Notes: generated by a model not told the origin, from the sequence alone. A DNA stretch of 32,458 nucleotides from Microgenomates group bacterium Gr01-1014_5 (GCA_007376395.1 VMGE01000002.1:143118-175575); one strand, 5' to 3'; shown: positions 28,359 to 28,752, counted from the first letter of the stretch. Numbers and translations: made by a program.

Positions 28359-28442
28359 GGTGAGGTCAGATAGCGGTTTATTCTACGCGCTTGGAAAGCG
28401 CGCGAGCGCAAGCTCACGCGGGTTCGAATCCCGCCCTCACCG
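28359..28442 (+). tRNA. tRNA-Ser(GGA)
   Basis: GGTGAGG/CCTCACC-G; CGCGC-TTGGAAA-GCGCG. Confidence 0.96.
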
Positions 28443-28443
28443 C

Positions 28444-28512
28444 AACGTAATAAATTGTTACACAATTTAAACGTTGCTGGAACGTTTCCCGCAAAACGGG
28501 ATTACGTTCCGC
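28444..28512 (+). repeat. 65-nt trailer element plus duplicated CCGC
   Basis: AACGTAAT...ATTACGTT flanked by CCGC on both sides, followed by CA. Confidence 0.95.
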
Positions 28513-28543
28513 CAATCAAAGATTTTATGTTGCTAAGACATTC

Positions 28544-28589
28544 GGAGGGTCGGATAAGAACCTGCGCTATGCACAGAACCTTGTCCTCC
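28544..28589 (+). repeat. 5' leader hairpin of tRNA-Ser(TGA)
   Basis: GGAGGGTC-GGATAAG-AAC-CTGCGC-TAT-GCACAG-AAC-CTTGTCC-TCC. Confidence 0.85.
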
Positions 28590-28598
28590 TTTGAATTA

Positions 28599-28682
28599 GG
28601 AGAGGTCGGATAGCGGTTCATTCCAGAGGTTTTGAAAACCTCCGTCCGCAAGGACTCGTGGGTTCGAATCCCACCCTCTCCG
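28599..28682 (+). tRNA. tRNA-Ser(TGA)
   Basis: GGAGAGG/CCTCTCC-G; GAGGT-TTTGAAA-ACCTC. Confidence 0.96.
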
Positions 28683-28683
28683 C

Positions 28684-28752
28684 AACGTAATAAATTGTTA
28701 CACAATTTAAACGTTGCTGGAACGTTTCCCGCAAAACGGGATTACGTTCCGC
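28684..28752 (+). repeat. 65-nt trailer element plus duplicated CCGC
   Basis: Identical to 28444-28512. Confidence 0.95.

What the first reader, a model, noticed from the sequence alone, without database searches (positions are those of the whole stretch)
28440..28752. 65-nt tRNA-Ser trailer with CCGC duplication, 8-bp terminal inverted repeats and two alternative folds
Seen: identical at 28444, 28684 and 24954-25018 (-), partial at 27893. It sits as CCGC-[AACGTAAT...ATTACGTT]-CCGC, and removing it from the GGA copy restores an encoded CCA end (CACCGCCA). Fold 1 is two tandem hairpins (GCAACGT/ACGTTGC and GGAACGT/ACGTTCC). Fold 2 is a four-way junction with no unpaired junction bases: AACGTAAT | AAATTGT-tac-ACAATTT | AAACGTT-gctgg-AACGTTT | CCCG-caaaa-CGGG | ATTACGTT. 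Inference: a miniature element targeting the Ser acceptor end, or a 3'-processing or att-blocking device. Perfect identity implies recent copying or conversion.
Basis: partly seen in the sequence, partly recalled or inferred. Interest (0 to 1): 0.78.

Follow-up and report, generated by a model that had tools for sequence, protein, structure and literature searches.

The report
Double-hairpin insert at tRNA tails
The 65-base repeat behind three serine tRNA genes is a small two-hairpin DNA insert that sits exactly at the tail of tRNA genes in one class of tiny-genome bacteria and usually travels with a small nuclease gene, so it looks like part of a little-known mobile cassette and not a four-way RNA device.

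Summary
Identical 69-nt copies lie at window 28442-28510, 28682-28750 and 24952-25020(-). A fourth copy, with a diverged second hairpin, lies at 27891-27961.

The element is two tandem hairpins with outer stems GNNACGT/ACGTNNC. Compensatory changes across relatives support this fold. The four-way fold is 13.5 kcal/mol weaker and breaks in relatives.

The family is nearly confined to one class: 33 of 401 genomes sampled in the class, against 1 of 376 elsewhere in the phylum.

- **Position:** of 54 places examined, 31 begin exactly at the discriminator base of a tRNA 3' end and 7 abut a tRNA 5' end.
- **Linked gene:** in 20 of 54 places a small GIY-YIG nuclease gene starts within 120 nt downstream. 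These linked nucleases form one clade.
- **Flank:** the right flank repeats the tRNA tail, GC in 35 of 41 places.
- **Gain or loss:** three pairs of same-genus genomes show filled and empty sites.

Best reading (0.6): these are solo or relic copies of the hairpin end of a GIY-YIG cassette that targets tRNA tails, made identical by recent gene conversion. How it moves, and what the hairpins do, is inferred and not shown.

The parts
28442..28510 (+). Double-hairpin element behind tRNA-Ser GGA: hairpin A 28442-28477 (its first two bases are G73 and C74 of the tRNA), linker T 28478, hairpin B 28479-28510
   Evidence: (69.5 bits)
28682..28750 (+). Identical double-hairpin element behind tRNA-Ser TGA
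   Evidence: (I2, D2)
24952..25020 (-). Solo copy between a methyltransferase-like ORF and dnaG. It shares 88 nt with the GGA copy, including 6 nt of tRNA end and 17 nt of right flank, so it was copied together with its flanks
   Evidence: I1
27891..27961 (+). Variant element behind tRNA-Ser GCT: hairpin A identical to the other copies, hairpin B an older diverged form with two stem mismatches
   Evidence: D2, I3; 76 bits
27804..27892 (+). tRNA-Ser (GCT)
28359..28443 (+). tRNA-Ser (GGA)
28599..28683 (+). tRNA-Ser (TGA)
28049..28309 (+). Small GIY-YIG nuclease gene (86 aa, UPF0213-like), a member of the clade that follows this element in other genomes. Here it starts 84 nt after the GCT copy
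   Evidence: (PF01541, 1.6e-15)
28527..28585 (+). Relic right after the GGA copy: homologous to the last ~36 nt of the GIY-YIG gene plus its 3' spacer. Consistent with a second GIY-YIG gene almost wholly deleted
28511..28514 (+). GCCA right flank of the GGA copy, which repeats the tRNA tail (G73 plus CCA)

Best explanation
The 65-nt repeat is a member of a family of double-hairpin DNA elements confined almost entirely to one class of small-genome (about 1 Mb) bacteria.

Anatomy. The element is two adjacent imperfect palindromes joined by a single T. Each is clamped by a conserved outer stem, GNNACGT/ACGTNNC, around a variable or absent inner stem.

Position. It sits at the very edge of tRNA genes with a fixed polarity. 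At 3' ends, the discriminator base and C74 are the first two bases of hairpin A, and the sequence after hairpin B repeats the tRNA tail (GC, often GCC or GCCA).

Full form. In its complete form it is the upstream end of a compact cassette. A roughly 85-aa single-domain GIY-YIG nuclease gene starts a few bases after hairpin B and often runs up to the next tRNA gene.

Gain and loss (shown). Cassette and solo elements are gained or lost as discrete units between closely related genomes.

Mechanism (inferred). Copying is homing-like. The nuclease breaks an unoccupied tRNA-tail site, and repair from an occupied paralogue or allele copies the element, with or without the gene and with variable stretches of flank. 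The hairpins rebuild N73-C74 and separate the tRNA from the nuclease gene, which keeps the insertion harmless. They may also hold down translation of the nuclease, whose start codon lies 3-6 nt after a stable stem.

This window. The GCT copy precedes the intact nuclease gene. The GGA copy is followed by a relic of a deleted one. The TGA and solo copies have no gene. The perfect identity of the copies comes from recent gene conversion among the tRNA-Ser loci.
For: Structure.
- The outer helices are 100% and 98.6% paired in 10 sequences, with changes on both sides at the variable columns.
- The tandem-hairpin fold is the minimum-energy structure.
- 35-nt versions made of the outer stems alone exist.

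Place.
- 31 of 54 places start at N73 of a tRNA 3' end and 7 of 54 abut a tRNA 5' end.
- Read away from the tRNA, the linker is T in all 22 pattern hits at 3' ends and in 6 of 7 at 5' ends.

Tail repeat.
- The right flank starts GC in 35 of 41 places, GCC in 21 and GCCA in 10.
- At a tRNA-Ala with A73, the element starts AC, hairpin A closes with GT, and the flank is ACCC.

Filled and empty sites within a genus.
- G086 vs G090: a 72-nt element at tRNA-Ser CGA, and element plus gene (about 320 nt) against 5 nt between tRNA-Ser GCT and TGA.
- G054 vs G055: two elements plus gene against 28 nt.
- G119 vs G092: tRNA-Ala.

Nuclease link.
- A GIY-YIG start lies within 120 nt downstream in 20 of 54 places, mostly 3-21 nt.
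- All 15 linked proteins fall on one side of a branch (support 80/99; 94% of bootstrap trees), apart from other GIY-YIG paralogues.
- They are 52-68% identical, with the Tyr, Tyr-Ile-Gly, Arg and His columns invariant.
- Genomes with the element carry more GIY-YIG matches: mean 7.7 in 14 genomes against 3.3 in 125 (relatives are not independent).

Copying with flanks.
- The 88-nt solo copy carries flanks from the GGA locus (I1).
- In G085 a decayed piece of a different tRNA-Ser 3' end lies next to the element.
- Tandem copies occur with the intact one next to the tRNA.
- One 32-nt hairpin is identical in 4 genomes of 4 families, beside three different tRNA species.

Relic. A remnant of a nuclease gene follows the GGA copy.
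Against: - No cleavage, insertion event or transcript was observed. The direction of each indel, gain or loss, cannot be told, and palindromes are easily deleted between short repeats.
- 34 of 54 places have no nuclease gene within 120 nt.
- Two non-tRNA sites are held at the same place across families (downstream of tRNA-Cys, and upstream of a membrane-protein gene). That looks more like a retained functional element than a parasite.
- Copy number is low, 1-6 per genome.
- The linked nucleases are unusually well conserved for selfish genes.
- A roughly 85-aa protein has no DNA-binding domain of the kind that site-specific homing enzymes use.
- The tree holds one unlinked long-branch paralogue inside the linked group, and its support is moderate.
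- Homing as such does not explain a 2-nt repeat.
Confidence: 0.6

Rival explanations
1. It is a fixed, functional RNA element and not a mobile one. As a structured trailer or leader beginning at N73, it directs or shields the ends of the tRNA and of the downstream message (a processing site, a barrier to exonucleases, or a 5' stabiliser). The presence/absence differences would then be losses.
For: - The start is always exactly at N73-C74, and hairpin A covaries with an A73 discriminator.
- It is kept at the same sites across families: tRNA-Ser GCT, the tRNA-Cys leader, and upstream of the membrane-protein gene.
- Copy number is low.
- Where it abuts a tRNA 5' end, a promoter-like -10 box lies just upstream, so it would be in the leader (my reading of the flanks printed).
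Against: - G-U pairs show no strand bias: 20 on the tRNA-sense strand against 18 on the other. The sense strand is the more stable in 13 of 29.
- At tRNA 5' ends the element lies in the opposite polarity to transcription in 6 of 7 cases, so the RNA would differ.
- No T run follows the hairpins, and the terminator scan calls none at the copies.
- No Rfam family matches.
- An identical hairpin lies beside different tRNAs in four families, and copies carry foreign flanks.
Confidence: 0.2
2. It is a pair of palindromic operators on double-stranded DNA, bound by a dimeric regulator that controls the GIY-YIG gene or the tRNA operon.
For: - The ACGT cores are conserved and Watson-Crick symmetric on both strands.
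- The two central ACGT cores have fixed 10-bp spacing.
- The element lies directly upstream of the nuclease start.
Against: - The inner stems vary freely in sequence and in length, from 3 to about 30 nt, yet stay self-complementary. Half-site spacing on duplex DNA is therefore not kept, whereas the base of a hairpin is.
- The variable outer positions covary within a hairpin and not across the centre.
Confidence: 0.08
3. It is a MITE- or REP-like element moved in trans by a transposase unrelated to the GIY-YIG gene, for example the IS200-like Y1 proteins of this genome.
For: - Short inverted termini and a 2-nt flank repeat.
- Three Y1_Tnp-like ORFs in the genome.
Against: - The Y1 ORFs are not flanked by such hairpins.
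- Copy number is low.
- The tie to one GIY-YIG clade is strong.
- Copies carry variable flanks, which clean transposition would not give.
Confidence: 0.07
4. The identical copies are an assembly artefact.
For: No reads could be laid on the window, because no sequencing run was listed.
Against: - The same architecture is found at the same kind of site in dozens of independent genomes.
- The copies are 69-88 nt with unique flanks.
Confidence: 0.01

Closest known systems
Double-hairpin elements (DHEs) of fungal mitochondrial genomes
   Same: Short elements that fold into two adjacent hairpins. They lie in intergenic regions and RNA genes, show identical copies across species, and are regarded as potentially mobile (passages of PMC10085805 read).
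   Different: DHEs are mitochondrial and GC-rich. The passages I read report no tie to tRNA tails or to a nuclease gene. Sequence relatedness was not tested, because no DHE sequence was on hand.
Free-standing GIY-YIG homing endonuclease genes, e.g. phage T4 segB in the tRNA gene cluster
   Same: A GIY-YIG gene sits between tRNA genes. The gene is inherited together with its flanks. The enzyme leaves 2-nt 3' ends (abstract of PMC2330249 in the listing), which matches the size of the 2-nt repeat seen here.
   Different: Here the protein is only the roughly 85-aa catalytic domain. The setting is a bacterial chromosome. A conserved double hairpin marks the junction. No cleavage has been shown.
GIY-YIG-encoding insertions in rRNA genes of CPR bacteria
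   Same: Small GIY-YIG genes inserted into stable-RNA genes in the same broad group of bacteria, and not within introns (passages of PMC11270868). One such gene lies inside 23S-like sequence in this genome.
   Different: Those insertions lie inside rRNA genes. No double hairpin or tRNA-tail site is mentioned: the terms 'tRNA', 'hairpin' and 'palindrom' each occur 0 times in that text.
MITEs and REP/BIME palindromic repeats of bacteria (features recalled)
   Same: Short non-coding palindromic DNA, possibly mobilised in trans, with solo copies derived from a longer parent.
   Different: This element has 1-6 copies per genome and not tens to hundreds. It has two separate hairpins and not one pair of terminal repeats. 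It lies at tRNA edges. The linked gene is a GIY-YIG nuclease and not a transposase.
Integrative elements that use tRNA 3' ends as attachment sites (recalled)
   Same: They target the tRNA 3' end, rebuild the tRNA end from element sequence, and leave displaced tRNA-end fragments.
   Different: No integrase was seen among the 9 neighbouring ORFs scanned. The insert is 35-90 nt, or about 320-440 nt with the gene. The repeat is only 2-4 nt.

Membership tests
MITE | Terminal inverted repeats | tested here: inconclusive
   8 bp in this genome's copies. Across the family only the ACGT core is shared between the two ends, and the variable positions do not pair: 5-6 of 10 sequences are unpaired there.
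MITE | Target-site duplication | tested here: met
   A GC repeat in 35 of 41 places, and AC at a tRNA-Ala. The filled/empty pairs are consistent with a 2-nt repeat.
MITE | Many dispersed copies and a parent element with a transposase | tested here: not met
   1-6 copies per genome. The linked gene is a GIY-YIG nuclease.
REP/BIME with RAYT (features recalled) | A RAYT (Y1 transposase) gene flanked by the repeats, and a high copy number | tested here: not met
   Three Y1_Tnp-like ORFs have no such hairpins in their 3-kb loci. Copy number is low.
Mitochondrial double-hairpin elements | Two adjacent hairpins | tested here: met
Mitochondrial double-hairpin elements | Signs of mobility (identical copies across species, presence/absence) | tested here: met
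Mitochondrial double-hairpin elements | Mitochondrial and GC-rich; common descent | tested here: not met
   This is a bacterial chromosome and the elements have G+C 0.26-0.63. Homology was not tested.
Free-standing homing endonuclease cassette | Encodes a nuclease of a homing-endonuclease family | tested here: met
   PF01541 at 1.6e-15. The catalytic-motif columns are invariant in 15 proteins.
Free-standing homing endonuclease cassette | Present or absent between close relatives at the same site, with co-conversion of flanks | tested here: met
   flanks carried along (I1, D2; G085)
Free-standing homing endonuclease cassette | Site-specific cleavage of the empty allele | not testable with these tools
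   Needs the purified protein and substrates.
Intrinsic terminator | G+C-rich hairpin followed by a T run | tested here: not met
   No terminator-like call at any copy. The flanks are GCCAATC... and GCTAGTT....
Any Rfam family | Match at or near the gathering score | tested here: not met
   Only tRNA and tmRNA matched in the window. Nothing matched at related loci at E up to 1.
Integron attC site (core motifs recalled) | Conserved core and inverse-core motifs, and a nearby integron integrase | not tested
   Compared only by eye with recalled motifs, which did not fit. No integrase search was run.

The most novel reading that the evidence does not exclude
The double hairpin is the DNA substrate of the minimal, roughly 85-aa UPF0213-type GIY-YIG nuclease. 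Extruded as hairpins, it presents the conserved ACGT stem bases to an enzyme that has no DNA-binding domain of its own. The pair forms a previously undescribed kind of bacterial mobile element. It integrates in one polarity at the N73-C74 step of tRNA genes, makes a 2-nt duplication that matches the 2-nt stagger of GIY-YIG cuts, and leaves solo hairpin pairs as non-autonomous derivatives.
Probability: 0.22. Interest if true: 0.85.

Novelty: new variant of a known kind. Interest (0 to 1): 0.62.

Why it matters
- **An orphan protein family.** Single-domain UPF0213 GIY-YIG proteins are widespread and have no settled function. A clade of them tied to a defined DNA structure and a defined genomic site gives a direct, testable substrate.
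- **A small model for target choice.** An element that lands on the last two bases of tRNA genes, in one polarity and at both kinds of tRNA edge, would be a compact model for how mobile DNA picks safe sites in genomes of about 1 Mb with little spare room.
- **Annotation.** The element rewrites the encoded tRNA tail, sometimes supplying CCA and sometimes removing it. That matters for reading tRNA 3' ends and for calling CCA-encoding status in these genomes.
- **The ordinary case.** If the ordinary reading is right, this is a tidy bacterial counterpart of the mitochondrial double-hairpin elements.

Tried and rejected
- **Four-way junction (fold 2).** Rejected. It scores -19.7 against -33.2 kcal/mol, and the pairs specific to it break in 4-6 of 10 relatives.
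- **CCGC as the general duplication.** Rejected. Only GC is general.
- **Rfam.** No family matched.
- **Y1 transposase link.** No hairpins beside the three ORFs.
- **Viral contigs.** In the 80 loci that I examined, none had the family's paired outer stems. The 7 that passed a stem filter were tandem GTAACGTTAC-type repeats.
- **RNA evidence.** No RNA holder was listed for the window stretch, so no reads were laid.
- **Earlier notes of this scan.** Nothing was returned by place or by sequence.
- **Strand-bias test for an RNA structure.** No bias found.
- **One more congener comparison.** G026 against G082 gave no alignable locus.
- **Literature.** Searches for a description of this element found none. 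The nearest hits were mitochondrial double-hairpin elements. Supplements were not opened.
- **Sponge hairpin elements.** The passages of PMC2800124 that I read added nothing specific.

Full report
**1. What is in the window.**
ARAGORN and Rfam place three tRNA-Ser genes on the + strand: GCT at 27804-27892, GGA at 28359-28443 and TGA at 28599-28683. They also find tRNA-Ser CGA, tRNA-Arg GCG and a tmRNA on the - strand.

- 88 nt are identical between 24937-25024(-) and 28438-28525.
- 73 nt are identical between 24950-25022(-) and 28680-28752.
- 48 nt are identical with 27887-27934.

A 74-nt tract running from the tRNA T arm into the element is 100% identical between the GCT and GGA loci. It is 92% identical to the TGA locus (D2).

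The assembly is 930,562 bases in 16 contigs and 96% complete. It holds no other full copy, only two diverged relatives on contig C5.

**2. The fold.**
The minimum-energy fold of the 73-nt block is two tandem hairpins. It scores -33.2 kcal/mol as RNA and -25.3 as DNA, with z -7.3 and none of 200 shuffles folding as well.

I aligned ten elements from four genomes.
- The outer helices of the tandem fold are 100% and 98.6% paired, with changes on both sides at every variable column.
- The helices specific to the four-way fold keep only the invariant ACGT. They break at the variable columns in 4-6 of 10 sequences.

Fold 2 arises as a by-product. All four arms share the palindromic ACGT core, and in this genome's copies hairpin B is roughly the reverse complement of hairpin A.

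**3. A family, and where it lives.**

| Search | Sample | Genomes with a match |
|---|---|---|
| Strict pattern | 101 relatives | 4 |
| Looser pattern | 139 of the order | 4 |
| Covariance model from the alignment | 139 of the order | 14 |
| Pattern | 401 sampled from the class | 33 |
| Pattern | 376 sampled from the phylum outside the class | 1 |

The pattern read backwards, used as a control, matched nowhere. In one search it matched once.

Inner stems differ freely between members, or are absent altogether in 35-nt members made of the outer stems alone. No Rfam family matches.

**4. Position.**
I examined 54 places in the fetched loci, holding 51 distinct sequences.
- 31 begin 2 or 4 nt inside ARAGORN's tRNA 3' end.
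- 7 abut a tRNA 5' end.
- 16 lie elsewhere.

Of those 16, one is cut off by a contig start with a tRNA-Ser 3' half visible in its flank. One follows a decayed tRNA-Ser 3' fragment. Two are second copies in tandem.

The 3' hosts are tRNA-Ser of every anticodon, tRNA-Arg (ccg, cct, gcg, tcg) and one tRNA-Ala. The 5' hosts are Pro, Gln, Gly and Cys.

The first bases of hairpin A are the tRNA's own N73 and C74. They read GCAA in 22 of 41 places. In 14 of 41 they read GCCA, so the encoded CCA lies inside the stem.

Read away from the tRNA, the linker is T in all 22 pattern hits at 3' ends and in 6 of 7 at 5' ends. Polarity is therefore fixed relative to the junction and not relative to transcription.

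**5. The flank repeats the tRNA tail.**
After hairpin B the sequence starts GC in 35 of 41 places, GCC in 21 and GCCA in 10. At the tRNA-Ala, which has A73, the element starts AC, hairpin A closes with GT, and the flank reads ACCC.

The repeat is the N73-C74 pair, not CCGC.

In this genome, by my reading of the 3' ends printed, 5 of 43 tRNA genes encode a full CCA.

**6. Filled and empty sites.**
- **G086 vs G090 (same genus).** G086 has the element behind tRNA-Ser CGA, GCT and TGA. At CGA, G090 lacks exactly 72 nt between alignable flanks. Between GCT and TGA, G090 has 5 nt where G086 has element plus gene, about 320 nt.
- **G054 vs G055 (same genus).** G055 has 28 nt where G054 has an intact element, a second element lacking one arm, and the gene.
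- **G119 vs G092 (same genus).** At tRNA-Ala these differ by 72 nt, with ACCC following in both.

The direction of each change, gain or loss, cannot be told from these pairs.

**7. The nuclease gene.**
In 20 of 54 places a small GIY-YIG ORF starts within 120 nt after hairpin B and points away from it. The gap is mostly 3-21 nt.

The window's ORF at 28049-28309 matches PF01541 at 1.6e-15. Its nearest solved relatives are two UPF0213 proteins.

I built a tree of 33 GIY-YIG proteins: 22 from the loci, including the window's two, and 11 other paralogues of this genome.
- All 15 element-linked proteins fall on one side of a branch (support 80/99; 94% of bootstrap trees).
- One unlinked long-branch paralogue sits among them.

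The 15 linked proteins are 52-68% identical to the window's. The Tyr, Tyr-Ile-Gly, Arg and His columns are invariant.

In the order, the 14 genomes with the element have a mean of 7.7 GIY-YIG matches. The other 125 have a mean of 3.3. Relatives are not independent, so that test overstates.

This genome has 13 such ORFs. Seven lie within 100 nt of a tRNA or tmRNA gene, and several end inside the first bases of the next tRNA.

**8. History of the window's copies.**
The GCT copy keeps an older hairpin B like that of G086's GCT copy, and it precedes the intact gene.

The 59 nt at 28527-28585, just after the GGA copy, align with the last ~36 nt of the gene and its 3' spacer. They look like the relic of a second gene.

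The solo copy carries 6 nt of tRNA end and 17 nt of the GGA copy's right flank. It was therefore copied with its flanks and not cleanly transposed.

Together with the 74-nt identical tract (D2), this points to recent gene conversion among the tRNA-Ser loci.

**9. RNA or DNA?**
Stems are almost wholly Watson-Crick. G-U pairs number 20 on the tRNA-sense strand and 18 on the other. The sense strand is the more stable in 13 of 29.

The polarity at tRNA 5' ends and the lack of a T run add to this. Together they lean towards a structure or history set at the DNA level. An RNA role in the tRNA precursor is not excluded, because no RNA data could be had.

**10. Mechanism: what is shown and what is inferred.**

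Shown:
- the anatomy;
- the site and polarity;
- the tail repeat;
- the presence/absence differences;
- the link to one nuclease clade;
- the carried-along flanks.

Inferred:
- The nuclease breaks unoccupied tRNA-tail sites, and repair copies the element in.
- The 2-nt repeat mirrors the 2-nt stagger of GIY-YIG cuts. That stagger is stated for T4 SegB in the abstract of PMC2330249.
- The hairpins make the insertion harmless or restrain the nuclease's translation.

**11. What is known.**
The nearest described things are these.
- Mitochondrial double-hairpin elements (passages of PMC10085805).
- Free-standing GIY-YIG homing genes in phage tRNA clusters (listing abstract).
- GIY-YIG genes in non-intron insertions of CPR rRNA genes (passages of PMC11270868).

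My searches found no description of a bacterial double hairpin at tRNA tails tied to a GIY-YIG clade. The searched library does not hold most subscription journals.

**12. Verdict.**
This is a real feature, confirmed as described, and it belongs to a coherent class-wide family.
- The best reading is a solo or relic end of a GIY-YIG cassette that targets tRNA tails (0.6).
- The main rival is a fixed RNA element (0.2).
- I rate it a new variant of known kinds (hairpin elements, homing cassettes), with interest 0.62.

Noticed in passing
window 29123-29196: Three to four tandem copies of a 19-nt unit span the end of a Phd/YefM-type antitoxin ORF (28907-29140) and the gap before a PIN-domain ORF (29187-29582) (D3).
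   Followed up: no
window 30314-30559 (-): A second small GIY-YIG gene starts about 100 nt downstream of the tmRNA gene (30660-31023, -). No ACGT double hairpin lies between them. In the tree it lies outside the element-linked clade.
   Followed up: partly
window 28296-28358 and 28544-28598: The spacers upstream of tRNA-Ser GGA and TGA each begin with a 13-14-nt copy of the tRNA's own 5' end, followed by a shared short hairpin. The GIY-YIG ORF ends inside the first of these.
   Followed up: partly
G000 contig C1, upstream of the GIY-YIG ORF at 37063-37386 (-): A different pair of abutting 9-bp-stem hairpins, with no ACGT core, lies between a promoter-like box and another GIY-YIG gene.
   Followed up: no
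G000 contig C14, about 23300-23813: Two short hairpins overlap the 5' end of tRNA-Glu by 3 nt. After the tRNA come a GIY-YIG ORF and tRNA-Lys. The ORF's stop codon falls at bases 8-10 of the tRNA.
   Followed up: no
G000 contig C14, 13269-13538 (-): A GIY-YIG ORF is preceded by sequence that reads like 23S rRNA. This fits the reported GIY-YIG insertions in CPR rRNA genes (PMC11270868 passages).
   Followed up: no
L010 (G000:C5) 1352-1500; also L014 and L037: Between tRNA-Cys and a downstream ORF lies a conserved unit: a promoter-like box, a hairpin with a T run, a second hairpin, and a shared ...CAGGGTTG(T)GC end that abuts the element. No Rfam match.
   Followed up: partly
G000 C11:4111-4344, C7:54155-54379, C7:76708-76947: Three IS200-like Y1_Tnp ORFs of 154-239 aa, matching only the C-terminal two thirds of the Pfam profile.
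   Followed up: partly
L032 (G054) 1566-1651 and L080 (G055) 1390-1475: ARAGORN calls a tRNA-Ser with anticodon ACT in two genomes of the same genus.
   Followed up: no
L031 (G119) about 1745-1890: A stretch of about 140 nt next to the tRNA-Ala locus matches 26 other listed places in the same-genus genome G092 at 68-96% identity (matches from 25 to about 160 nt long). This is a dispersed repeat family unrelated to the hairpins.
   Followed up: no
G000, all contigs: Most tRNA genes encode N73 and C74 but not a full CCA. By my reading, 5 of 43 encode the full CCA.
   Followed up: partly
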